From: Escherichia phage vB_EcoM_CRJP21
Strand: one strand, 5' to 3'
Sequence record: OQ708376.1
DNA length: 64,000 nt
The notes under the pieces were generated by a model, which saw only the letters and a program-made list of their open reading frames with translations, searched no databases and was not told the DNA's origin. The position numbers and the translations under genes were made by a program. Of this stretch, positions 874-59,683 are shown in pieces. Position 1 is the first letter of the stretch, and each line of letters begins with the position of its first letter.

Positions 874-906
874 ATCATTAATTCATTATATAATGGGACA
901 TAACAT

Positions 907-1022
<116 letters not shown>

Positions 1023-13808: not shown

Positions 13809-13882
13809 AAGTATTTGACATAACAAATAATATGGAGTACAATGTGCTCCTAATTTAATTATCAGCTAAAAAGGAAAACATT

Positions 13883-14143
13883 ATGAAATCTATTCTCGTT
13901 GCAGTTAACCTGGTTGCTTCCCCATCTTTCAACTTCAAACAAGTTGTTGCTGATAATCTGAAGAAGATCTGTCCAAACGCTGAATTGACTTTCTGTGTAT
14001 TTGATTCAGAAAAAGTAACTAAAGTTGATCTAAACTATCTTTTGAACGAAGTACAAAGCGTTTCTGGTGAAAGTAACTTAAAAGTTCTTCATGAGATTGC
14101 AGAAGATTATGATGACACTCTAGTAATTTCGGAGAAATTCTAA
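13883..14143 (+). CDS. hypothetical protein (86 aa)
   Basis: ORF with SD aaggaaaa. Confidence 0.55.
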   Translation: MKSILVAVNLVASPSFNFKQVVADNLKKICPNAELTFCVFDSEKVTKVDLNYLLNEVQSVSGESNLKVLHEIAEDYDDTLVISEKF

Positions 14144-14148
14144 ATCAA

Positions 14149-14568
14149 ATGATTACATTCATTCAGTACTTAATCATTAAATTTTTTGGCTATTATACGA
14201 TTGAGGGCAAAGCTACGCTTGCACATAAAATCTTTGTAGCATTATGTACGGGTGATTATGACGTATTGAATAAGTACTGTAAATCTAAAGAATGTATTGA
14301 TATAATGGCACTTCGTATCTATGAGTGCCGATCCAATAGATACAATTTTTACCAGTACAGATTTGATAAAGAAGAATTTGATAGCATCAAAATGCTAAAG
14401 AATTTATGTAACAATAAAAAGAATATGCATATATCAGAATTTGTTGCTTTGTATTTTTATTTAAAAAGTTCATTGTATATGAACACGATGCAAAGATTCG
14501 ATACTAGAATTAATGTATTCACCGATAAAGAATTTTATATATACGATAAATTCTTAGATAAGGTTTAA
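14149..14568 (+). CDS. hypothetical protein (139 aa)
   Basis: ORF. Confidence 0.55.
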   Translation: MITFIQYLIIKFFGYYTIEGKATLAHKIFVALCTGDYDVLNKYCKSKECIDIMALRIYECRSNRYNFYQYRFDKEEFDSIKMLKNLCNNKKNMHISEFVALYFYLKSSLYMNTMQRFDTRINVFTDKEFYIYDKFLDKV

Positions 14569-14569
14569 T

Positions 14570-15067
14570 ATGACAACTGTTTATATTGATAAACGATTAA
14601 ATTTATTGATTACCGATTCTAGAGTTACGTCAACTATACCACGAAACTTATTTGGTTTTTTCCCACTAAGACCAAAATATCAATATGGAGTTGTTAATCA
14701 AAAAACTTTATATGTACATGACCGTTTATTCAGTGCTAGTGGGTCAGTAAGTGAAATTGATAAAGTACTGGATTGGTTAATTAATAAAGTACCAGTTATA
14801 CCTGACAGAAAGTTAAGTTGCCATTGTGTGCTTCTTTCTAAAGATTATGTTATTCATATGATTTTAACTAAAGGAAAGTTTATTAAAAAACTTGAATATC
14901 TACATGAAGACTACACTTTCTTTATGGGAAGTGGTGGAGAATACATGGTAGATGCTGCTATTCATGAAGAACATACAACTTTATATGATAAAGTGTTTAG
15001 TACTTTCATGGATGTGCATAACCATGATTGCTTCACAGATGATAATATTAATGTATATCGATTTTGA
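14570..15067 (+). CDS. candidate HslV/proteasome-beta-like Ntn hydrolase (165 aa)
   Basis: N-terminus MTTVYID... (Thr after Met) and GSGGEYMVDAA, resembling the HslV signature GSGGPYAQAAA. Confidence 0.45.
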   Translation: MTTVYIDKRLNLLITDSRVTSTIPRNLFGFFPLRPKYQYGVVNQKTLYVHDRLFSASGSVSEIDKVLDWLINKVPVIPDRKLSCHCVLLSKDYVIHMILTKGKFIKKLEYLHEDYTFFMGSGGEYMVDAAIHEEHTTLYDKVFSTFMDVHNHDCFTDDNINVYRF

Positions 15068-15088
15068 TTTCGTCATTAGGAGATGTAA

Positions 15089-16054
15089 GTGAAAAAGCTT
15101 GATTTAAATACAATTGCCGAAGAAGTTCTGGATGAATGTTTTTCTAATGAAGAAGTCAACACACTAGAAGCCTTAGATTTCGTTGAAGATAAAGATGAAA
15201 ATGAAGGTAAAGTACAAAGCAGTTTCAAATATAATATTACACTTAAGCGACCACCAAATGTTTCCAATGAAGATCTAATTCGTGATATTCAAGCTGGTAT
15301 CAATGTAAAGAAAAACACTGAACTGTTAGTTCGTTACAATTATGGACTTATTATTGATGTAGCAAGTAAATGTACTTGTTATATCCCATTTGAAGATAAG
15401 ATTTCATATGGTGTTGAGGGGTTCATGAGAGCACTAAAAACCTTTGATCTTAATAAGAATGTGAAGTTCATTACCTATGCTTCTTCTAGTATTTACATGA
15501 CAGTTTATAACGAAAGTTCTGACGCTAACTATATGGTACACTTCCCACGTTATATGAGTGTTCATAAGATCAAAGTAAAAAGATTCTGTCAGGAATATAT
15601 GCGTAAACATGGTGTTCGCCCAACTCCTGAAATAATCTCAGAGGGTACTGGGATTGAGATTCAGCATGTTAATAACTGTTTGTTATTTCAAAGCGAATAC
15701 ACTTCTCTGGATGCACCATTAGACGGTGTTACCGATGGTACACTAGGTGACATTATTCATTCACCTGCTTCTGATTTTAACCTCAATGTTGATAGTATTC
15801 GTGCACCTTTACGTTATGCTATCAATGAACTGACTAACGAATTGAGTACTAAAGAACGTGAGATTATCCAGCGTGTTCATGGTCTAGGTGAATATGAACC
15901 TGAAACGCTTCGTGAGATTGCTGATAATGGTTTTGTTGATGATAATGGAAAATATGTTAAATCCCGTTCATCAATACACCGAAAGTACAGTGAAGCTATG
16001 CAAAAGCTTAAGAAGTTAGTACTTGCAAAAGGGTACGAATACGAAGATTTCTAA
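15089..16054 (+). CDS. sigma70-family RNA polymerase sigma factor (GTG start)
   Basis: region 2-like GVEGFMRALKTFDLNKNVKFITYASSSI; region 4.2-like REIIQRVHGLGEYEPETLREIADNGFVDDNGKYVKSRSSIHRKYSEAMQKLKK. Confidence 0.6.
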   Translation: MKKLDLNTIAEEVLDECFSNEEVNTLEALDFVEDKDENEGKVQSSFKYNITLKRPPNVSNEDLIRDIQAGINVKKNTELLVRYNYGLIIDVASKCTCYIPFEDKISYGVEGFMRALKTFDLNKNVKFITYASSSIYMTVYNESSDANYMVHFPRYMSVHKIKVKRFCQEYMRKHGVRPTPEIISEGTGIEIQHVNNCLLFQSEYTSLDAPLDGVTDGTLGDIIHSPASDFNLNVDSIRAPLRYAINELTNELSTKEREIIQRVHGLGEYEPETLREIADNGFVDDNGKYVKSRSSIHRKYSEAMQKLKKLVLAKGYEYEDF

Positions 16055-16059
16055 AGAAC

Positions 16060-16090
16060 AAGGGTTGGCTTATGCCAACCTTTTTTTTAT
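16060..16090 (+). terminator. intrinsic terminator
   Basis: hairpin gggttggc-ttat-gccaacc followed by 8 T. Confidence 0.7.
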
Positions 16091-16109
16091 GGGATGAAGT
16101 AAAAGTTTG

Positions 16110-16650
16110 TGATATAATTATCTTGTACAATTCTGTTGGCATGATATTCATGTACCTGATCCACTCGAAAACGTAGAGGGCAGTTGAGCAGTCCGACAGT
16201 GCGAACAGCAAAAGAAACCCGTTAGATGTGGGCATAGTTTGAACCCCTCACGGCAATGCGGCTGTATAAAGAACCACGTTAGGATAGCTGGTGGTTCCTT
16301 GATAGACATATAAGGATAACACCTTACGAATTATCTAAGGGAGAGTTATCGAATTTTGTACAGGAAAGTTGCGTCCAAAATTTGAGTACTCACATTAAGT
16401 ATTTGATTGCATAGATACTTAATGAAGATACACTATGTTTAAAAGTGTAGACCGTCATATGAAACTGAAGTAGAGAGAAACAGGATGACCCGCTTTCGCA
16501 CTCGTTATGAGTAATCTTCAATGCAATAGCTCTGATACCATCAGCGTCAAATTTCCCTCCTTGTGGGGGGAAGAAAAATCCCTTCCTCAAATCCCGTCAA
16601 TATTAAAAGTCCTTGACAGTTATTAATCATTCGCGTAGAATACGTAGTAT
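16110..16650 (+). ncRNA. candidate non-coding RNA region (ORF-free, follows extended -10 promoter)
   Basis: TGaTATAAT at 16110-16118; about 540 bp with no credible ORF; GC-richer than surroundings. Confidence 0.25.
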
Positions 16651-17143: not shown

Positions 17144-17932
17144 ATGAGCACTATAGATGAACTGATTCGACGGAATTCAAAATATTACCAACCATCAGAA
17201 ATTGTAGGTAACATTACCAAATCAGAGTTTGGTCCAAATACTCGAAAACTCATTCATGTAATGTCACGTGATGGCTTTAAATGTGATTGTTGCGGTGAAT
17301 CTAATGTAGTATTCACTTTACACAAGCACAGTACTAAAGATCGTTATAAATTCAGACCTTATGTACTTAAAGGGAAACGCCTTGTACGCATGACGTTAGA
17401 CCATAATGTACTGGACTGTCTTCAGGGCGGTAATGATAAAGAGAACATGACTGCACTGTGTGAAGATTGTAACGCATTACGCCAGCATAAGTTTGCTGAA
17501 TACAGTGAGTTTAAACACTGGTATAATAACGCGGATCGTTCAATCGAGCCTGACGTTAACTACTGCTTCATTGAGTACATTAAGAATGCCAAAGATACAT
17601 ACATTCTTAAATCAATGTCACCTATTACCGTGTTTCCTGAGAACCTATTCACTACATTAAAGAATAGTTTTATTGTAGGTGATATTGATGCATTCAAGTA
17701 TTTTGACAAAGGTGCAAAACATTTTGAAATTCAATGTCTTAGTACTGCACTATGTGAACTCATTAAAATTTACATAAAAGAGTATTTGGGTATTGACAAT
17801 GTACGTGTACCAGAGTATACTTTTTCTATTGAATTCGATTGTGAATCAATCAAAGAGTTTGGAATTCTTTTCAATAAACAAATAGAACTTGCAATTCAAA
17901 ACGAAATCAAGTACTATACTACTAACATTTAA
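17144..17932 (+). CDS. HNH endonuclease (possible free-standing homing endonuclease)
   Basis: CDCCGE...LDHNVLDCLQGGNDKENMTALCEDCNALRQHK, an HNH-type motif. Confidence 0.65.
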   Translation: MSTIDELIRRNSKYYQPSEIVGNITKSEFGPNTRKLIHVMSRDGFKCDCCGESNVVFTLHKHSTKDRYKFRPYVLKGKRLVRMTLDHNVLDCLQGGNDKENMTALCEDCNALRQHKFAEYSEFKHWYNNADRSIEPDVNYCFIEYIKNAKDTYILKSMSPITVFPENLFTTLKNSFIVGDIDAFKYFDKGAKHFEIQCLSTALCELIKIYIKEYLGIDNVRVPEYTFSIEFDCESIKEFGILFNKQIELAIQNEIKYYTTNI

Positions 17933-24336: not shown

Positions 24337-24528
24337 ATGTTGATTTATCAAAGTGATAATATTCGTGTTATGCAGCATCCCTACTTACAAATCTTTGATG
24401 TGCAGCAGTATATGGAAGGTGATGACCCAAGAACCTATGGTCGTAAGTATGATTACTTCACTGTAAAGCAGTGTAAAAATATTAACGAAGTACGACAATT
24501 AGTTCAAGAACTTCAAAACAAAGGTTGA
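24337..24528 (+). CDS. hypothetical small protein
   Basis: trimmed from track ORF 24283. Confidence 0.4.
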   Translation: MLIYQSDNIRVMQHPYLQIFDVQQYMEGDDPRTYGRKYDYFTVKQCKNINEVRQLVQELQNKG

Positions 24529-24554
24529 CTTCGGTCAGCCTTTTTTGTTATAAT
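24522..24554 (+). promoter_or_regulatory. PeSL-like cassette: terminator hairpin (UUCG loop) fused to early promoter
   Basis: ggttgac-ttcg-gtcagcc then T-run then tataat; TTGAC of the stem doubles as -35. Confidence 0.6.
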
Positions 24555-27258: not shown

Positions 27259-27373
27259 TTTAACTTTGGGACAACCATTCTTATTATGATATAATGTTTT
27301 ATGTCATTCGATATAAATGACAACGGAACTATAAATATTATAGTAAAATTTATCTCTTATAGGAGTTATAAAA

Positions 27374-35103: not shown

Positions 35104-35138
35104 AGGGTTGACTTCGGTCAGCCCTTTTTGCTATAATT
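35104..35138 (+). promoter_or_regulatory. PeSL-like cassette upstream of denV
   Basis: gggttgac-ttcg-gtcagccc then T5 then tataat. Confidence 0.65.
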
Positions 35139-36384: not shown

Positions 36385-36420
36385 AAGGGTTGACTTCGGT
36401 CAGCCCTTTTTGCTATAATA
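36385..36420 (+). promoter_or_regulatory. PeSL-like cassette
   Basis: gggttgac-ttcg-gtcagccc then T5 then tataat. Confidence 0.65.
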
Positions 36421-38342: not shown

Positions 38343-38378
38343 AAGGGTTGACTTCGGTCGGCCCTTTTTGCTATAATT
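38343..38378 (+). promoter_or_regulatory. PeSL-like cassette
   Basis: gggttgac-ttcg-gtcggccc then T5 then tataat. Confidence 0.6.
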
Positions 38379-51412: not shown

Positions 51413-52522
51413 TTATTTTGGTAAATCAATTTTAGTAAAGACTGCAACATCCTCGATTGCACCTGGAATGGCGTAATACGATCCAGTACTATACACATCT
51501 CCATTTTTGGTTAATATCGATGTCAAACCATCACTAAAAAGAACATCCCTAATCTCACTAACTTCAACGGGTAATTGTAAATTGGTAGCACTATATATAG
51601 CACCAGTTTGAGAATTGTTTAATCCCAAACCACGGTTCGCCCCAACACCCTTCTGATATGTACTAGTAATTACCATTTGTGTAGCAGTATTTAAGGCAGG
51701 TGAATTCGTCATAAACAACGGAGAACTATTAGGCAAAGTACTTAAAGGAACTGCACGGAATGTAGTCGTACCTGAACTAAGAAAGTTTGGAGTTTGACCA
51801 CATACGAAATATGATGTACCATTATAGTAATTTAATGCATTACCACCAATGGCTGCATCGATTACACCAGAACTACGCAATCCCCAAGTGTTAATTTGTG
51901 TTTGGTTCCCCGTACCATGCTGCCCACTACTATTCCATCCAGAACTATATAGCTTATTATCTAATGTAAGATACATACTATCATTCGCATTGGTCATTAC
52001 TTTACGAACGTTCGTAGCACATTGAGTTAATGTGTAAATTGATGATGAACCAATACCCAAAGAACCACGATATCCATTATCTCCTGCACCATAGAGTACT
52101 GAATTAGTGCTAAGTACAAATATTAAACCATTTGTGCATACAATATTAGCAATTTCACTGACTGGTATAGCATTGGTAAACCAACTAGTCCTTTCAACTA
52201 ATACAGTACTGTAAGAAGTAGTTGTAGAAGATGAGAACCAGTACGTTTGACCTGATGTCCATATAGTATTATCATTTTTAATAATAACAAGTGTACGATC
52301 ACCCACGAAAAAATTAGAAACATCTGCACTTACTAATGTCCACGAAGACACCGTGTTGGTATTACCATTTCCAGATTCACCACCTTGATTTCTACCTATG
52401 TAATATAAATCATGTGAATCAGTCAATAAGAATTGACCTTGTGTAGAAGCACCAACTTTAATTATTTTTTTAGGACCAGGGACAATATTTCCATACCTAA
52501 TTATTCTTCCAAAAGGTAACAT
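51413..52522 (-). CDS. RCC1-like repeat protein, paralog 8
   Basis: MLPFGRIIRY leader; start trimmed. Confidence 0.7.
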   Translation of the reverse strand: MLPFGRIIRYGNIVPGPKKIIKVGASTQGQFLLTDSHDLYYIGRNQGGESGNGNTNTVSSWTLVSADVSNFFVGDRTLVIIKNDNTIWTSGQTYWFSSSTTTSYSTVLVERTSWFTNAIPVSEIANIVCTNGLIFVLSTNSVLYGAGDNGYRGSLGIGSSSIYTLTQCATNVRKVMTNANDSMYLTLDNKLYSSGWNSSGQHGTGNQTQINTWGLRSSGVIDAAIGGNALNYYNGTSYFVCGQTPNFLSSGTTTFRAVPLSTLPNSSPLFMTNSPALNTATQMVITSTYQKGVGANRGLGLNNSQTGAIYSATNLQLPVEVSEIRDVLFSDGLTSILTKNGDVYSTGSYYAIPGAIEDVAVFTKIDLPK

Positions 52523-52530
52523 ATTCCCTC

Positions 52531-53733
52531 CTATTGTTGCCATAACTGCGTTGGCATTAATGTTAGTGTAGTAATACTATAAGTGCCATCTGGCAATCTA
52601 CCACCATTTCCATTCCAGCCACCACATGCATATAATTTATAATCTTTAGTAATTATTATGGTTCTGCTCCAATCTTTAGATGCCATAAGAACATTTTCAT
52701 AACCACCACTTATTGCACTAAGATTAAAAATATTCCAAGTTCTAACTAATGTATTAGTTCCATTACCTTCTTGACCATATGAGTTAGCACCACTACTTCT
52801 AACATATGGTGCGTATTGTGCCATAGGTGCACCAATTGATGCATTTCCCATATTACTTGGACAAATAAAAGTACTGTACTTACTTACATCAACCGTGACC
52901 GATGTGTTCCTAATTGGTGTTAGCTGATTTACCGATGTAGTCGTACCATTACCCGCTTGTCCAGTACTGTTAGCCCCGCTATAATATACAGACCCACCAG
53001 TAGTAAACCACCAAGTAACATCGTATGTAGTACTAATATGTTCTACATTACTAATCACGAATTTGTTCAAATATACAACAGAACTACCACCACATCCACT
53101 TTCACCAAAGTTATCCTTACCACAAAACCATGCATCTTTATTTGATTTGATATAGTGCGTTCCTTGTAATGAACATGCCATATGTGTAACTTCACCCATA
53201 TTAGTCATAACTGTGAGTGTAGGGATGGAATTTTTATTACCAGAGCCACATTCACCATTGGTATTTCTTCCACACGCAATTACTCTACCATCGGTTAATA
53301 ATATTCTAGTACTTTCACCTATATATACACTCTTGATCATATTAGCCATAACACCTATTTTATTAAATGCAACAGTAACATCAGTCCATGTTGTCAAATA
53401 ACCATTAACAGGTGTTGCATCTCCATAATCAGAAAATGCAGCCACAGACCCAGTGTAGTATATTTTATTATCCAAATCAATCATCAACGAACCTTGAACA
53501 CCAAGCCAAAAGGCTGCACAGTTCCTTGCAAGTACTGTAAATGACGAAACTGCTGCTGAATTCCCAAGACCAAATTGATACATGTTATTACTACCATAAC
53601 CATATAAAGTATTAGTTGGGTTATGTAGATACATACAGTTTGTATAATGTTGTTGTAAAACATCTGAGAACTCTACAGGTTCTGGACCTGGTGCAATATT
53701 TGCGTACTTAACCATTCTTCCAAAAGGTAACAT
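52531..53733 (-). CDS. RCC1-like repeat protein, paralog 9
   Basis: MLPFGRMVKY leader. Confidence 0.7.
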   Translation of the reverse strand: MLPFGRMVKYANIAPGPEPVEFSDVLQQHYTNCMYLHNPTNTLYGYGSNNMYQFGLGNSAAVSSFTVLARNCAAFWLGVQGSLMIDLDNKIYYTGSVAAFSDYGDATPVNGYLTTWTDVTVAFNKIGVMANMIKSVYIGESTRILLTDGRVIACGRNTNGECGSGNKNSIPTLTVMTNMGEVTHMACSLQGTHYIKSNKDAWFCGKDNFGESGCGGSSVVYLNKFVISNVEHISTTYDVTWWFTTGGSVYYSGANSTGQAGNGTTTSVNQLTPIRNTSVTVDVSKYSTFICPSNMGNASIGAPMAQYAPYVRSSGANSYGQEGNGTNTLVRTWNIFNLSAISGGYENVLMASKDWSRTIIITKDYKLYACGGWNGNGGRLPDGTYSITTLTLMPTQLWQQ

Positions 53734-57886: not shown

Positions 57887-58514
57887 TTAAACACAAGTAG
57901 ACAGGGGAAGCTCCTAGTGAACAACCTTTATGTACAGGCGAATTGTTAAAATTCAGCCTGGACAAATGCGATCACTAGGATTCTCCCCAGGCTAAACCCC
58001 GTAATCATAGGTAGTCATAAGTAATCATATATAAACATTTATATGAGCACCGTAGAATCACAGAATGATTATATATGATTCAGTACTGATTAGTATAGAC
58101 AAGAATTCTCAAGAATGCACGGGAAGGATTCAGTACTGATATGCCACTAAGTAGGCAGAGGAAGTCTGCCGTACTTTGTAGTTTCCAAGCTCCTTTTCCA
58201 TTTTTCAAATTACATCAAATGTAATCAAAAGTAATCACGCAATGATTAGTACTGAATTATTACTTTCACCTTAATTACAATTACCCTTTTACCCTTCGGG
58301 GTAAAATTCAATTACCCCTTGAGGCTCCAGCAAAAAGTTGGTTAGTACTCCATCCTAAATCTCGATCCTAAAAATTTTGGAGTACCTATGAAATAAAAGT
58401 TGGATCTTCGAAAGTTGAAATTTACGTTGGGACGTTTATGATTTGTGGGATATAATGATGTTTGTAGACGGGTAGTTCTCAAGAATATCAGTACTGAAAG
58501 ATGAAAGAAAGTTA

Positions 58515-58542
58515 TTGACTTTATGATTCAGTACTGTATAAT
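58515..58542 (+). promoter_or_regulatory. orphan sigma70-like promoter in ORF-poor region
   Basis: ttgact-N16-tataat; no credible ORF within about 1 kb downstream. Confidence 0.5.
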
Positions 58543-58869
58543 GTTCTACATAGGGTGATGAGTTGCTGCGAACAATTCATTTACTCTACCTCCTGTCGTG
58601 AGACAGTACAGAAAAGATAGTTCCTCCTGTGGTGGTACATCTTTTTGAACCTCATATGAAAATCGTAATAACAGTACTGATATTAACAGAATGGTGTCAG
58701 TACTGATTTTAATCTAAAGCATTATGCCACCAGCACAAGCTGGTGGATTCCCTCTAACAGTATTCAGTACTACATGATGGTCTTCATCCTCCTAGGGTAA
58801 CATAGTGAGGGCTATGATGGCAGTACTGAATACTCCCTTTCAAAAGATAGATCTATGGTATAGTACTGA

Positions 58870-59060
58870 CGGATTTTGGGCGTAGTTACCCTGGATGGAT
58901 TTTGGGCGTAGATATGTCTAGCCCTCCAGAAGTCTGGAAGTAAAGATGGCTATCCATCTAGACGGCTAAACGGCTAGATTTCTGGATGGCTGGATGGCTA
59001 GACGTTTGGACGGCTAAACGGCTAGATGGTTACACGTCTGGAAGTATAGACGGCTAAATC
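58870..59060. repeat. iteron-like short direct repeats
   Basis: GATTTTGGGCGTAG at 58872 and 58889 (variant at 59221); GACGGCTAAACGGCTAGAT at 58961 and 59009; GGATGGCT x2; GACGGCTAAA x3. Confidence 0.6.
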
Positions 59061-59683
59061 AAAATTTTATTTTGTTTTTTCCAATAGTTCCCCTACCGCG
59101 TGGGGATAGTTTCCCCGCAGTATCTGGTGTTAGATTTTTCTGAATCTGGAATCATTATCTTATAAACTGGGGGCAATGTCAACGGCCTGGCCGGATATTT
59201 TTAAAAATTTTTTCAGTACTGAATTTTGGGCGTAACTATGCACCCGGTGGGCTTGAGTCTTTCTCGACTTGATGGAACTATTATACAGTACTGGAAAAAT
59301 AAAGCAATACCCTGGAAGCAAAAAAGTTTTAATTAATTTGCTTGCTATCCTGGGCCGGACTATGGTACTATATTTCAGTACTGAGAAAGTGCGTTTACCT
59401 GCTAGGGTGCGGGAGTGTATCCTTTTTTTATATCTTGAATTTTGGACGGATCTTCCCACCCCCTGGGGTATCCGCTTTCTCGCGTCTATGTAGTAATTAT
59501 ACGCTTTTTCAGGATCAAGTCAATACCTAAAAACAAAATAATTGAAAATAATTTAACGCGTTTAAACGGCCTGTAAAGCCCTGGAATGATTGGAATGGTG
59601 CAAATGTATAGCTTATGTGTATTAATGCGTTAGAATGCGTCTGAGGACGTTTTACGGGGTATAGGGATGATTTAGTGGATTGA

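What the first reader, a model, noticed from the sequence alone, without database searches (positions are those of the whole stretch)
15089..16054. Phage-encoded sigma70-family sigma factor
The 321-aa product has a recognisable region 2 (ITYASSSI matches the conserved STYA box; preceding GVEGFMRALKTFDLNKN) and a region 4.2 helix-turn-helix (TLREIADNGFVDDNGKYVKSRSSIHRKYSEAMQKLKK). T4 itself uses the highly divergent gp55 for late transcription, so a full-length sigma70-type factor in a T4-like accessory region suggests an additional layer of transcriptional takeover.
Basis: partly seen in the sequence, partly recalled or inferred. Interest (0 to 1): 0.6.

Follow-up and report, generated by a model that had tools for sequence, protein, structure and literature searches.

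The report
Jumbo-phage RpoD-like sigma factor gene
The ORF is a genuine sigma-70-family sigma factor of a 350-kb E. coli jumbo phage (121Q/PBECO4 type); it is already annotated and discussed in the literature, but it has never been tested, and it probably directs the host RNA polymerase to a phage-specific "middle" promoter class.

Summary
Observation confirmed. Window 15089-16054 (+) encodes a 321-aa sigma-70-family protein with domains sigma2, sigma3 and sigma4, supported by Pfam, NCBIfam, PHROG 351, a PDB sequence search and Foldseek.

The window is 99% identical to Asteriusvirus jumbo phages. The gene is 121Q gp167, annotated "RNA polymerase sigma factor". [quoted passage not shown] No experimental study turned up.

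What I add:
- **Expression.** The gene sits in an early operon behind a near-consensus host promoter and ends at a strong terminator.
- **Protein features.** It lacks the W433/W434 pair and the extended -10 contact residues of E. coli sigma70. All relatives carry an 8-10-aa beta-hairpin insertion in the region 4.2 helix-turn-helix.
- **Second sigma.** The phage also encodes a gp55-like late sigma, outside the window.
- **Three promoter classes.** The genome has host-type TTGACA promoters, a second class tG(G/A)GACA-N13-TGnTATAAT upstream of replication genes and the gp55-like gene, and T4-late-like (A/C)TAAATA.
- **Co-variation.** The -35-like box of the second class changes between phage lineages together with the sigma's recognition helix. 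This makes the sigma the likely middle-gene factor, by inference only.

Noticed in passing: a conserved, multi-copy, roughly 0.5-kb structured RNA absent from Rfam starts right after the gene.

The parts
13815..13843 (+). Host-type (class E) promoter TTGACA-N17-TACAAT. It is the nearest promoter upstream of the four-gene operon that ends with the sigma gene.
   Evidence: Consensus scan, 11/12 match; regex scan. No promoter-like site of any class lies between it and the sigma start.
13883..15067 (+). Three small co-oriented genes upstream of sigma in the same operon (86, 139 and 165 aa). The last one (14570-15067) has a weak HslV-family peptidase match.
   Evidence: ORF list. PHROG families of unknown function; phrog_1040 'peptidase HslV family' 4.9e-6 for 14570-15064. 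No Pfam hit.
15078..15082 (+). Shine-Dalgarno AGGAG, 6 nt before the GTG start.
   Evidence: Read from the sequence. The same start is annotated in 121Q gp167.
15089..16054 (+). Sigma-70-family sigma factor gene, 321 aa (orthologue of 121Q gp167).
   Evidence: 99.7% identical to 121Q gp167, annotated 'RNA polymerase sigma factor'.
15089..15238 (+). N-terminal about 50 residues: acidic (net charge -10 over aa 1-45) and predicted disordered. Function unknown; it resembles region 1.1 only in charge.
   Evidence: Composition; pLDDT 25-48; no family match.
15326..15532 (+). Domain sigma2 (aa 80-148): core-binding and -10 recognition regions 2.1-2.4. N383, D403, F419, F427 and Y430 equivalents are kept. 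W433/W434 become S/S, Y425 becomes V, Q437 becomes M, T440 becomes Y.
   Evidence: Pfam r2 aa 80-140; alignment with E. coli RpoD and residue table; pLDDT 75-89.
15572..15766 (+). Domain sigma3 (aa 162-226). The extended -10 contact residues H455 and E458 of sigma70 are replaced by Y and V.
   Evidence: Pfam Sigma70_r3 2e-9, above the cut-off; residue table.
15806..16033 (+). Domain sigma4 (aa 240-315) with the region 4.2 helix-turn-helix. Recognition helix is SRSSIHRKYSEAM: R584 is kept, E585 becomes S, R586 becomes S, R588 becomes H, Q589 becomes R.
   Evidence: Pfam r4 covers only aa 251-279, profile positions 4-28 of 50; alignment; helices 274-280 and 293-313 at pLDDT 81-90.
15938..15961 (+). 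Eight-residue insertion (DDNGKYVK; 10 residues in phage Munch) in the turn of the region 4.2 helix-turn-helix. It is predicted to be a beta-hairpin and is conserved (G[FY]xDxxGK) in all 12 phage homologues examined.
   Evidence: Alignment A1 (G281, D284 and G287 nearly invariant); DSSP strands at 282-283 and 289-290.
16060..16091 (+). Intrinsic terminator (10-bp stem, then T8) 6 nt after the sigma stop codon.
   Evidence: Terminator scan; sequence.
16091..16118 (+). Class M-like promoter tGGGATG-N13-TGA-TATAAT, the proposed target type of this sigma. It drives the ORF-free element that follows.
   Evidence: Regex scan; aligned with the M promoters of the three paralogous copies.
16119..16612 (+). 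ORF-free conserved structured RNA element, one of four paralogues in the genome. It does not belong to the sigma gene but is linked to it in every lineage examined.
27268..27295 (+). Canonical class M promoter GGGACA-N13-TGA-TATAAT inside the window (121Q 101440, upstream of structural gene gp199).
895..922 (+). Class M promoter GGGACA-N13-TGA-TATAAT, 11 nt upstream of the tRNA-Ser/tRNA-Arg pair.
   Evidence: Regex scan; tRNAs at 933-1103.

Best explanation
The gene encodes a functional three-domain (sigma2-sigma3-sigma4) sigma-70-family factor of an Asteriusvirus jumbo phage that has no RNA polymerase of its own.

- Step 1 (shown at sequence level): the gene is made early. It lies in the early-gene region, in an operon behind a near-consensus host sigma70 promoter, and ends at a strong terminator.
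- Step 2 (inferred from homology): the protein binds host core RNA polymerase through its conserved region 2.1-2.2 and region 4 surfaces, competing with sigma70.
- Step 3 (inferred from promoter and protein co-variation): the holoenzyme initiates at a phage-specific 'middle' promoter class. In this phage the class reads tG(G/A)GACA, 13 nt, TGn, TATAAT, with a strict 16-nt spacer. It precedes the primase, exonuclease, topoisomerase II, DNA-polymerase region, ClpP/ClpA-like and Nudix genes, a tRNA cluster, four copies of a structured RNA, and the gene for the gp55-like late sigma.
- Step 4 (inferred): the gp55-like sigma then reads T4-late-like (A/C)TAAATA promoters upstream of structural genes. 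This gives a host sigma70 -> RpoD-like sigma -> gp55-like sigma cascade, analogous to Bacillus phage SPO1 (host sigmaA -> gp28 -> gp33/34; from my own knowledge).

The altered region 4.2 helix, with its conserved beta-hairpin insertion, would read the altered -35 box. The retained A-11/T-7 pocket residues would read TATAAT.
For: Sigma identity:
- all place the protein in the sigma-70 family.
- The protein is conserved in all Rak2-like jumbo phages, at 31-99% identity. Group 2 jumbo phages are reported to lack their own RNA polymerase (PMC7824862).

Early expression:
- Class E promoters (45 copies, 43 of them on the + strand) are concentrated at 20-160 kb of 121Q, where small genes of unknown function lie. 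One sits at window 13815, upstream of the sigma operon.

Class M promoters are real:
- The strict pattern G[GA]GACA-N13-TGnTATAAT occurs 12 times on the + strand of 121Q (11 intergenic), 0 times on the - strand, and 0.0 times in Markov-shuffled genomes.
- The relaxed pattern occurs 24 / 0 / 0.4 times.
- Sites lie upstream of primase gp19, exonuclease gp29, topoisomerase II gp52, the DNA-polymerase region, NudE, ClpP/ClpA-like genes and gp55-like gp591.
- The same architecture was published for CBB/GAP32 as TG(A/G)AAC(G/A)-N13-TGnTATAAT, including the promoter of the gp55-like gene (PMC5259590 text and Table S6).

Co-variation of the -35-like box with the sigma recognition helix:
- Asteriusvirus clades A and B (helix R..HR): tG(G/A)GACA.
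- Munch-like (R..HR): GGGACA.
- RaK2-like (R..HY): (C/T)TGAAC(A/G).
- CBB/GAP32/BF/XbC2 (K..SR): TG(A/G)AAC(G/A).
- XaC1 has a CBB-like helix although its sigma is very divergent. It has TGAAACA, as predicted before I looked.
- Host sigma70 region 4.2 and its TTGACA target are essentially invariant across these hosts (established knowledge). A lineage-specific box therefore points to a phage-encoded reader.

Other support:
- The RpoD-like sigma evolves much faster than the gp55-like sigma: 35% against 74% identity between 121Q and GAP32. This fits a factor that co-evolves with its own sites.
- (A/C)TAAATA lies upstream of 11 of 13 structural genes checked.
Against: - No experiment exists. I found no binding, transcription or time-course data for this phage group.
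- Class M promoters carry a perfect extended -10 (TGnTATAAT), which E. coli sigma70 can use without a -35 element. The phage sigma lacks the sigma70 residues that read TG (H455, E458) and the W433/W434 wedge. Host sigma70 plus an unidentified phage activator bound at the -35-like box could therefore explain the same pattern.
- The co-variation rests on about three independent evolutionary transitions.
- The residue-to-base assignments come from my memory of sigma70/-35 contacts, and RaK2 (H588 with A at -33) does not fit a simple code.
- The temporal class of the M-controlled genes is inferred from gene function only.
Confidence: 0.6

Rival explanations
1. The protein is a functional sigma, but class M promoters are read by host sigma70 through their extended -10, helped or gated by another phage protein bound at the lineage-specific -35-like box (a MotA/AsiA-like solution). 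The phage sigma then serves a different promoter set that I did not recognise, or it simply replaces sigma70 at host-type promoters after the host factor is inactivated.
For: - Class M has a perfect TGnTATAAT and keeps GACA/AAC of the host -35.
- The phage sigma lacks H455/E458 and W433/W434.
Against: - K-mer enrichment found no fourth promoter-like class apart from E, M and L.
- The -35-like box tracks the sigma's recognition helix, including the XaC1 prediction.
- No MotA-like factor was seen, although I did not search for one systematically.
Confidence: 0.25
2. The protein is a competitor or decoy rather than an initiation factor. It occupies core RNA polymerase or titrates a host partner to shut off host transcription, and it has lost promoter-melting ability along with the tryptophan pair.
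For: W433/W434, Y425, Q437 and T440 are all substituted. The sigma3.2 linker region is poorly conserved and modelled with low confidence.
Against: - Group 3 and group 4 sigmas also lack the WW pair and are active (established knowledge).
- The base-flipping pocket residues F419, D/E420, K/R423, K426 and Y430 are conserved in most lineages (CBB and XaC1 differ at several of them), and the DNA-recognition helix of region 4.2 is conserved within lineages. A pure decoy would not need these.
- The beta-hairpin in the helix-turn-helix is conserved in all 12 phage homologues examined.
Confidence: 0.07
3. The protein is the late-gene sigma of the phage.
For: Phage-encoded sigma factors often drive late genes (T4 gp55, SPO1 gp33/34; established knowledge).
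Against: - A separate gp55-like factor exists.
- T4-late-like (A/C)TAAATA boxes precede structural genes.
- The RpoD-like gene lies in the early region behind a host-type promoter.
- Structural genes do not carry class M boxes as a rule.
Confidence: 0.05

Closest known systems
Annotated orthologues in Rak2-like ('group 2') jumbo phages: 121Q gp167, PBECO4, phAPEC6 and Sharanji 'RpoD', RaK2 ORF244, GAP32 and CBB_513
   Same: It is the same gene: 99-100% identity in Asteriusvirus, 44% in RaK2 and 35% in GAP32/CBB. All share the same early-region context and the same region 4.2 insertion. Papers describe it as a sigma that probably redirects the host polymerase (PMC5259590, PMC7824862, PMC11895373).
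   Different: Nothing differs at the gene level. The literature I found gives no target promoter, residue analysis or experiment.
Bacillus phage SPO1 gp28 (middle-gene sigma) and the SPO1 cascade (from my own knowledge)
   Same: It is a phage-encoded sigma-70-family factor made from host-recognised early promoters. It redirects host core polymerase to a middle promoter class, and a further phage sigma activity drives late genes.
   Different: gp28 is shorter and very divergent, with no detectable sequence relationship here. The SPO1 late factor is gp33/34, not a gp55 type. The role proposed here is inferred, not demonstrated.
E. coli sigma70 (RpoD) and sigmaS (RpoS), group 1/2 sigmas
   Same: These are the best sequence and fold matches: RpoD_Cterm 6e-25, PDB RpoD 5.2e-17, Foldseek 5ipl_F sigmaS 1.7e-10. 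The order sigma2-sigma3-sigma4 is the same, and N383, D403, F419, F427, Y430 and R584 are conserved.
   Different: - It scores far below the equivalog cut-offs (88 against 354 bits).
- No Pfam region 1.2 is detected.
- W433/W434, Y425, Q437, T440, H455, E458, E585, R586, R588 and Q589 are all changed.
- It has an 8-aa beta-hairpin in the helix-turn-helix and an acidic, disordered N-terminus.
T4 middle-promoter system MotA/AsiA ('sigma appropriation') (from my own knowledge)
   Same: The proposed role is functionally equivalent. A sigma70-type -10 is kept while the -35 is replaced by a phage-specific box, upstream of replication genes and of the late-sigma gene.
   Different: T4 remodels host sigma70 with two small proteins. 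Here a complete phage sigma is the candidate reader.
T4 gp55-type late sigma
   Same: Both are phage sigmas acting on host core polymerase, and the same phage carries one (121Q gp591).
   Different: They belong to different families (phrog_12791/234 against phrog_351). gp55 is a minimal factor that reads only TATAAATA.

Membership tests
Sigma-70 family (Pfam Sigma70_r2/r3/r4; NCBIfam TIGR02937) | Region 2 domain (core binding, -10 recognition) | tested here: met
   Pfam r2 7.2e-5, 22.9 bits against cut-off 24 (just under) over aa 80-140. It aligns over its full length with RpoD region 2 in PDB chains. N383, D403, F419, F427, Y430 and A431 are conserved.
Sigma-70 family (Pfam Sigma70_r2/r3/r4; NCBIfam TIGR02937) | Region 3 domain | tested here: met
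   Pfam Sigma70_r3 2e-9, 37.8 bits, above the cut-off of 25.3.
Sigma-70 family (Pfam Sigma70_r2/r3/r4; NCBIfam TIGR02937) | Region 4 helix-turn-helix | tested here: met
   Pfam r4 3.1e-5, 23.9 bits against 24.1, covering the first half only because of the insertion. The recognition helix aligns with [16 protein letters not shown]. The model shows helix, beta-hairpin, helix at pLDDT 81-90.
Sigma-70 family (Pfam Sigma70_r2/r3/r4; NCBIfam TIGR02937) | Curated superfamily score | tested here: met
   TIGR02937 scores 44.7 bits against a cut-off of 42.9.
Sigma-70 family (Pfam Sigma70_r2/r3/r4; NCBIfam TIGR02937) | Binds core RNA polymerase and confers promoter-specific initiation | not testable with these tools
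   This needs a pull-down and in vitro transcription.
Group 1/2 sigma (RpoD/RpoS equivalogs) | Equivalog-level score | tested here: not met
   RpoD_Cterm scores 88.2 against 354, and rpoS_proteo scores 70.5 against 378.7.
Group 1/2 sigma (RpoD/RpoS equivalogs) | Region 1.2 (PF00140) | tested here: not met
   No PF00140 hit at E <= 1, whereas most of the cellular relatives found carry it. Only a short 'EDLIRDIQAG' stretch resembles its C-terminal end (read from the sequence).
Group 1/2 sigma (RpoD/RpoS equivalogs) | Region 2.3/2.4 aromatic and -12 contact residues (Y425, W433, W434, Q437, T440) | tested here: not met
   They are V, S, S, M and Y in the window protein. No homologue has the WW pair.
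Group 4 (ECF) sigma | Two-domain architecture without region 3 | tested here: not met
   A confident region 3 is present.
T4 gp55-type late sigma | Membership of the gp55 protein family | tested here: not met
   The window protein matches only phrog_351. The gp55-type families phrog_12791 and phrog_234 match a different gene, 121Q gp591.
Phage 'middle' sigma of a temporal cascade (SPO1 gp28 type; a functional class) | Expressed from host-recognised early promoters | tested here: met
   At sequence level only: TTGACA-N17-TACAAT at 13815-13843 heads the operon, and the gene lies in the early-promoter-rich region.
Phage 'middle' sigma of a temporal cascade (SPO1 gp28 type; a functional class) | Its own promoter class upstream of middle genes and of the late regulator | tested here: inconclusive
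   Class M exists and co-varies with the sigma's recognition helix. The link between sigma and promoter is correlative.

The most novel reading that the evidence does not exclude
The RpoD-like sigma is the dedicated initiation factor of a promoter class whose -35 box co-evolves with the sigma's unusual region 4.2 (a helix-turn-helix with a beta-hairpin insert).

This sigma-promoter pair drives the replication genes and the late-sigma gene. It also drives a previously undescribed, multi-copy, roughly 0.5-kb structured RNA.

That RNA has almost the same phyletic distribution as the sigma gene, and one copy lies within about 5 kb downstream of the sigma gene in the lineages checked. Together they would form a conserved sigma/promoter/RNA module of Rak2-like jumbo phages. 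Candidate roles for the RNA include an origin-primer RNA in the manner of ColE1 RNA II or T4 oriF/oriG, or an RNA that acts on RNA polymerase.
Probability: 0.4. Interest if true: 0.7.

Novelty: already known. Interest (0 to 1): 0.3.

Why it matters
The gene itself is ordinary for this phage group: it is a textbook way for a phage without its own polymerase to reprogram the host enzyme.

What would matter is the untested part. These 350-kb phages would run a three-tier cascade with two phage sigmas. The middle tier offers natural orthogonal sigma/promoter pairs: GGGACA-type, GAAAC-type and TGAAC-type boxes, each with a matched recognition helix. These pairs could be tested directly in E. coli and would be of use in synthetic biology.

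The beta-hairpin inside the region 4.2 helix-turn-helix is, as far as I know, an unstudied variation of -35 recognition.

The structured RNA found next to the gene may be the more interesting lead.

Tried and rejected
- **CBB motif in the window.** I searched the window for the published CBB motif TGAAACG-N-TATA. It is not enriched, and the Asteriusvirus version turned out to be GGGACA/GAGACA.
- **Distant homologues.** The search for homologous proteins missed the 35-45% identical phage relatives. I took them from GenBank phage records instead.
- **Rfam.** I scanned the window at gathering threshold, the gap at E <= 1 and nine other copies of the RNA. No family matched the RNA element.
- **PA5oct RNAs.** I tested whether the RNA-seq-supported PA5oct ncRNA001/002 are homologues of the RNA element. 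They are not, by nhmmer --max.
- **Replication origins.** GC and AT skew along 121Q might have revealed origins at the RNA copies. The skew simply follows gene orientation and is uninformative.
- **Neighbouring genes.** Pfam found nothing on ten neighbouring proteins. PHROGs gave only a weak HslV hit and an HNH endonuclease.
- **Hammerhead resemblance.** The 'CAGAUGAG...CGAA' block of the RNA looks a little like a hammerhead ribozyme core. I rejected this because the U4 position is A and no Rfam hammerhead model matched.
- **Residue-to-base code.** A simple code for region 4.2 is not consistent for RaK2, so I present it only as a correlation.
- **Literature.** I found no experimental work on this sigma or on the RNA.
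Full report
**1. The observation**

The ORF at window 15089..16054 (+) exists as described. It starts with GTG, encodes 321 aa, and has an AGGAG box 6 nt upstream. All searches agree that it is a sigma factor:
- Pfam finds Sigma70_r3 (2e-9, above the curated cut-off). It also finds r4 (3.1e-5) and r2 (7.2e-5), each within about one bit of its cut-off.
- NCBIfam gives RpoD_Cterm 6e-25, and the sigma-70 superfamily model TIGR02937 is above its cut-off. All equivalog models (RpoD, RpoS, FliA, SigF and others) are far below theirs.
- PHROG 351 'RNA polymerase sigma factor' matches at 2.3e-60.
- A phmmer search of PDB sequences returns 58 sigma chains, the best being RpoD at 5.2e-17.
- An AlphaFold2 model built on 25 homologues has three confident helical domains (pLDDT 75-90). 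In Foldseek against the PDB, all 50 matches listed are sigmaS, sigmaA or sigma70 chains.

**2. Where the window comes from, and what is already known**

The region is 99% identical at DNA level to Escherichia phages JP4, 121Q, phAPEC6, PBECO4 and others. These are 350-kb jumbo myoviruses of the genus Asteriusvirus. The gene is 121Q gp167, annotated 'RNA polymerase sigma factor', and its exact protein sequence is in public databases under that name.

Orthologues occur in all Rak2-like jumbo phages: RaK2 at 44%, Munch at 37%, GAP32/CBB at 35% and XaC1 at 31% identity.

The literature I could read says the following:
- The CBB paper notes the sigma in the presumed early region (PMC5259590).
- Iyer et al. 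treat phage sigmas as a defining trait of 'group 2' jumbo phages, which lack their own RNA polymerase (PMC7824862).
- The Sharanji paper repeats this.

I found no experiment on the protein. As a finding, this is already known. As biology, it is untested.

**3. Anatomy of the protein**

I aligned 12 phage homologues with E. coli RpoD residues 360-613.

Conserved:
- N383, D403, F419, F427, Y430, A431 and P453.
- E420 as D, R423 as K, and K426, in most lineages. These form much of the pockets that hold the flipped A-11 and T-7 bases, on the assignment from my knowledge of sigma70 structures.

Changed in every phage homologue:
- W433/W434 (S/S, T/T and similar pairs), Y425, T440 and E458.
- H455 is changed in most of them but kept in RaK2 and CBB.
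- In Asteriusvirus and RaK2, R436 and Q437 are changed as well.

In region 4.2:
- R584 is kept, but E585, R586, R588 and Q589 become S, S, H and R.
- An insertion of 8-10 residues (consensus G[FY]xDxxGK) sits in the turn of the helix-turn-helix in all 12 phage homologues. It explains why the Pfam r4 match stops half-way.
- The model folds it as a beta-hairpin between helices 274-280 and 293-313.

The first 50 or so residues are acidic (net -10 over aa 1-45) and predicted disordered. No Pfam region 1.2 is detected.

Overall, the protein is a three-domain sigma. By sequence it is nearest to group 1/2, but it fails their defining features.

**4. Context and expression**

The sigma gene is the last of four co-oriented genes.
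- A class E promoter, TTGACA-N17-TACAAT, lies at 13815-13843.
- A 10-bp-stem terminator follows the stop codon at 16060-16083.
- The surrounding region is dense with near-perfect host-type promoters on the + strand: 12132, 13494, 16613, 17793, 18438 and 18786.
- In the complete 121Q genome, which I assembled from seven fetched pieces, 45 copies of TTGAC[AT]-N16/17-TAnAAT lie on the + strand and 2 on the - strand. Markov-shuffled genomes give about 3. The sites are concentrated at 20-160 kb, among small genes of unknown function.

The gene is therefore most likely transcribed early by unmodified host holoenzyme. This is an inference from sequence.

**5. A second sigma and three promoter classes**

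Outside the window, 121Q gp591 is a gp55-type late sigma (phrog_12791 2.7e-154, phrog_234 8.4e-18). It sits next to the gp46/47-like nuclease genes, as gene 55 does in T4.

K-mer enrichment upstream of genes and alignments anchored on the -10 element show two more promoter-like classes besides class E.

Class M reads t-G-(G/A)-G-A-C-A, 13 nt, TG(A/C), TATAAT, with a strict 16-nt spacer.
- The strict pattern occurs 12 times on the + strand (11 intergenic), never on the - strand, and 0.0 times in shuffles. A relaxed pattern gives 24 / 0 / 0.4.
- Sites lie upstream of primase gp19, exonuclease gp29, topoisomerase II gp52, the DNA-polymerase region, NudE, ClpP-like and ClpA-like genes, and the gp55-like gene itself.
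- In the window they lie at 895-922 (upstream of two tRNAs), 27268-27295, 58429-58456 and, in weaker form, 16091-16118.

Class L, (A/C)TAAATA, precedes 11 of 13 structural genes checked and resembles the T4 late promoter.

The CBB and GAP32 authors had already found the class M architecture in their phages. There it reads TG(A/G)AAC(G/A)-N13-TGnTATAAT, and it includes the promoter of the gp55-like gene. They did not assign a factor to it.

**6. Linking the sigma to class M**

The -35-like box differs between phage lineages, while the -10 part stays TATAAT:

| Lineage | -35-like box | Region 4.2 recognition helix (sigma70 positions 584-591) |
|---|---|---|
| Asteriusvirus clade A | tG(G/A)GACA | RSSIHRKY |
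| Asteriusvirus clade B (TH47; sigma 59% identical to clade A) | tG(G/A)GACA | RSSLHRKY (from P0008, the 60%-identical clade-B-type protein) |
| Munch-like | GGGACA(A/G) | RTSLHRCY |
| RaK2-like | (C/T)TGAAC(A/G) | RGTLHYKF |
| CBB/GAP32/BF/Yen9-04/XbC2 | TG(A/G)AAC(G/A) | KATLSRRY |

As a test, I predicted that XaC1 should have a GAAAC-type box. Its sigma is very divergent but has a CBB-like helix (KPTLSRRY). It has TGAAACA.

Host sigma70 region 4.2 and its TTGACA target are essentially the same in all these hosts (established knowledge). A box that changes with phage lineage therefore implies a phage-encoded reader, and the RpoD-like sigma is the obvious candidate. It also evolves much faster than the gp55-like sigma: 35% against 74% identity between 121Q and GAP32.

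This is correlation over roughly three independent transitions, not proof.

The main rival explanation is host sigma70 using the perfect extended -10 of class M, with another phage protein bound at the box. This rival is strengthened by the fact that the phage sigma lacks the sigma70 residues that read the TG motif.

**7. Most likely mechanism**

Host sigma70 holoenzyme transcribes the early region, including this gene. The new sigma then binds host core polymerase and initiates at class M promoters. This switches on replication and metabolism genes, tRNAs, a structured RNA and the gp55-like sigma gene. The gp55-like sigma in turn drives class L late genes.

My confidence in each part:
- It is a sigma-70-family protein: about 0.97.
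- It is a working sigma on host core polymerase: about 0.8.
- It reads class M promoters: about 0.55-0.6.

The closest functional precedent is the SPO1 gp28 cascade. The T4 MotA/AsiA system does the equivalent job by other means. Both statements come from my own knowledge.

**8. Noticed next to the gene**

The 0.5 kb after the terminator has no ORF.
- It starts at the class M-like promoter at 16091-16118.
- It has three paralogues elsewhere in the genome, each behind a class M promoter.
- blastn finds 254 places in 61 phage records, that is 3-5 copies per genome.
- Its host-genus distribution is the same as that of the sigma gene: the counts match for every genus except Klebsiella, where blastn finds 1 record against 10 for the sigma. 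The divergent RaK2 copy was found only by nhmmer.
- One copy lies within about 5 kb downstream of the sigma gene in the lineages checked.

An RNAalifold consensus on 26 non-redundant copies has 78 pairs in 15 helices, and 51 pairs show compensatory changes.
- 96.6% of cells are paired, against 78% in shuffles (0 of 500 shuffles reach the observed value) and 38-45% when partners are slid.
- 348 cells carry double changes, against 91 in shuffles.

No Rfam 15 family matches any of the 10 copies tested, and I found no paper on it. It looks like an undescribed large structured RNA, and its function is open.

**9. Verdict**

The finding is correct, well supported and already known, so it scores low on novelty. 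The added value of this analysis is a concrete, testable promoter assignment for the sigma and the structured RNA lead.

Noticed in passing
window 16091-16612 (+); paralogues at 121Q 192.74-193.32 kb, 247.44-247.92 kb and 326.60-327.06 kb; loci L019-L061, L003:4989-5457, L006:8038-8523, L014:24579-25171: A conserved ORF-free element of about 450-550 nt lies directly after the sigma gene. It occurs in 3-5 copies per genome in all Rak2-like jumbo phages (61 records, 254 places), and each copy sits behind a class M promoter. Covariation support for a 15-helix structure is strong: 51 of 78 pairs show compensatory changes, 96.6% of cells are paired against 78% in shuffles, and 0 of 500 shuffles reach the observed value. 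It is not in Rfam 15, is mostly unannotated, and is not homologous to the PA5oct ncRNAs. Its function is unknown; an origin-primer RNA or an RNA acting on RNA polymerase are speculations.
   Followed up: partly
window 895-922 (+): A canonical class M promoter (GGGACA-N13-TGA-TATAAT) lies 11 nt upstream of tRNA-Ser(tga)/tRNA-Arg(tct) at 933-1103. Part of the phage tRNA cluster may therefore belong to the 'middle' class.
   Followed up: no
window 24525-24554, 35108-35137, 36390-36419, 38348-38377 (+); nine copies in 121Q at 98.7-145 kb: Repeated terminator-promoter cassettes read GGTTGACTTCGGTCAGCC-T-run-(G/T)nTATAAT. The -35 hexamer TTGACT lies inside the stem of a UUCG-loop terminator hairpin, so termination of one unit and initiation of the next share the same 30 bp.
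   Followed up: partly
window 14570-15067 (+): The gene immediately upstream of sigma, in the same operon, has a weak match to HslV-family peptidases (phrog_1040 4.9e-6). It begins MTTV..., as N-terminal-threonine proteases do. One related record (fEgEco12) annotates an HslV protease subunit in this region.
   Followed up: partly
window 17144-17932 (+): An HNH homing-type endonuclease gene (phrog_35175 8e-187) lies 0.5 kb downstream of the structured RNA copy. A second RNA copy in 121Q (247.4 kb) also lies within 1 kb of an HNH gene (gp513), and a third lies next to endonuclease VII. This may be coincidence.
   Followed up: no
window about 42700-53700 (- strand): A tandem array of about nine paralogous genes of roughly 300-430 aa lies on the opposite strand. 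In 121Q they are annotated 'putative DNA condensation protein (RCC1-like)'. They form an island of reversed orientation and negative GC skew inside the early region.
   Followed up: no
window 57887-59159 and 121Q 135.2-137.2 kb: A stretch of 1.3-2 kb has almost no ORFs. It holds a class M-like promoter (58429-58456, GGGACG...GGGATATAAT) followed by a class E promoter (58515-58542). Its content was not analysed.
   Followed up: no
121Q 321985-322824 (outside the window; L013:21985-22821): A gp55-type late sigma factor gene lies behind a class M promoter (GGGACA-N13-TGC-TATAAT at 121Q 321900), next to the gp46/47-like nuclease genes. It is 74% identical between 121Q and GAP32, whereas the RpoD-like sigma is only 35% identical.
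   Followed up: yes
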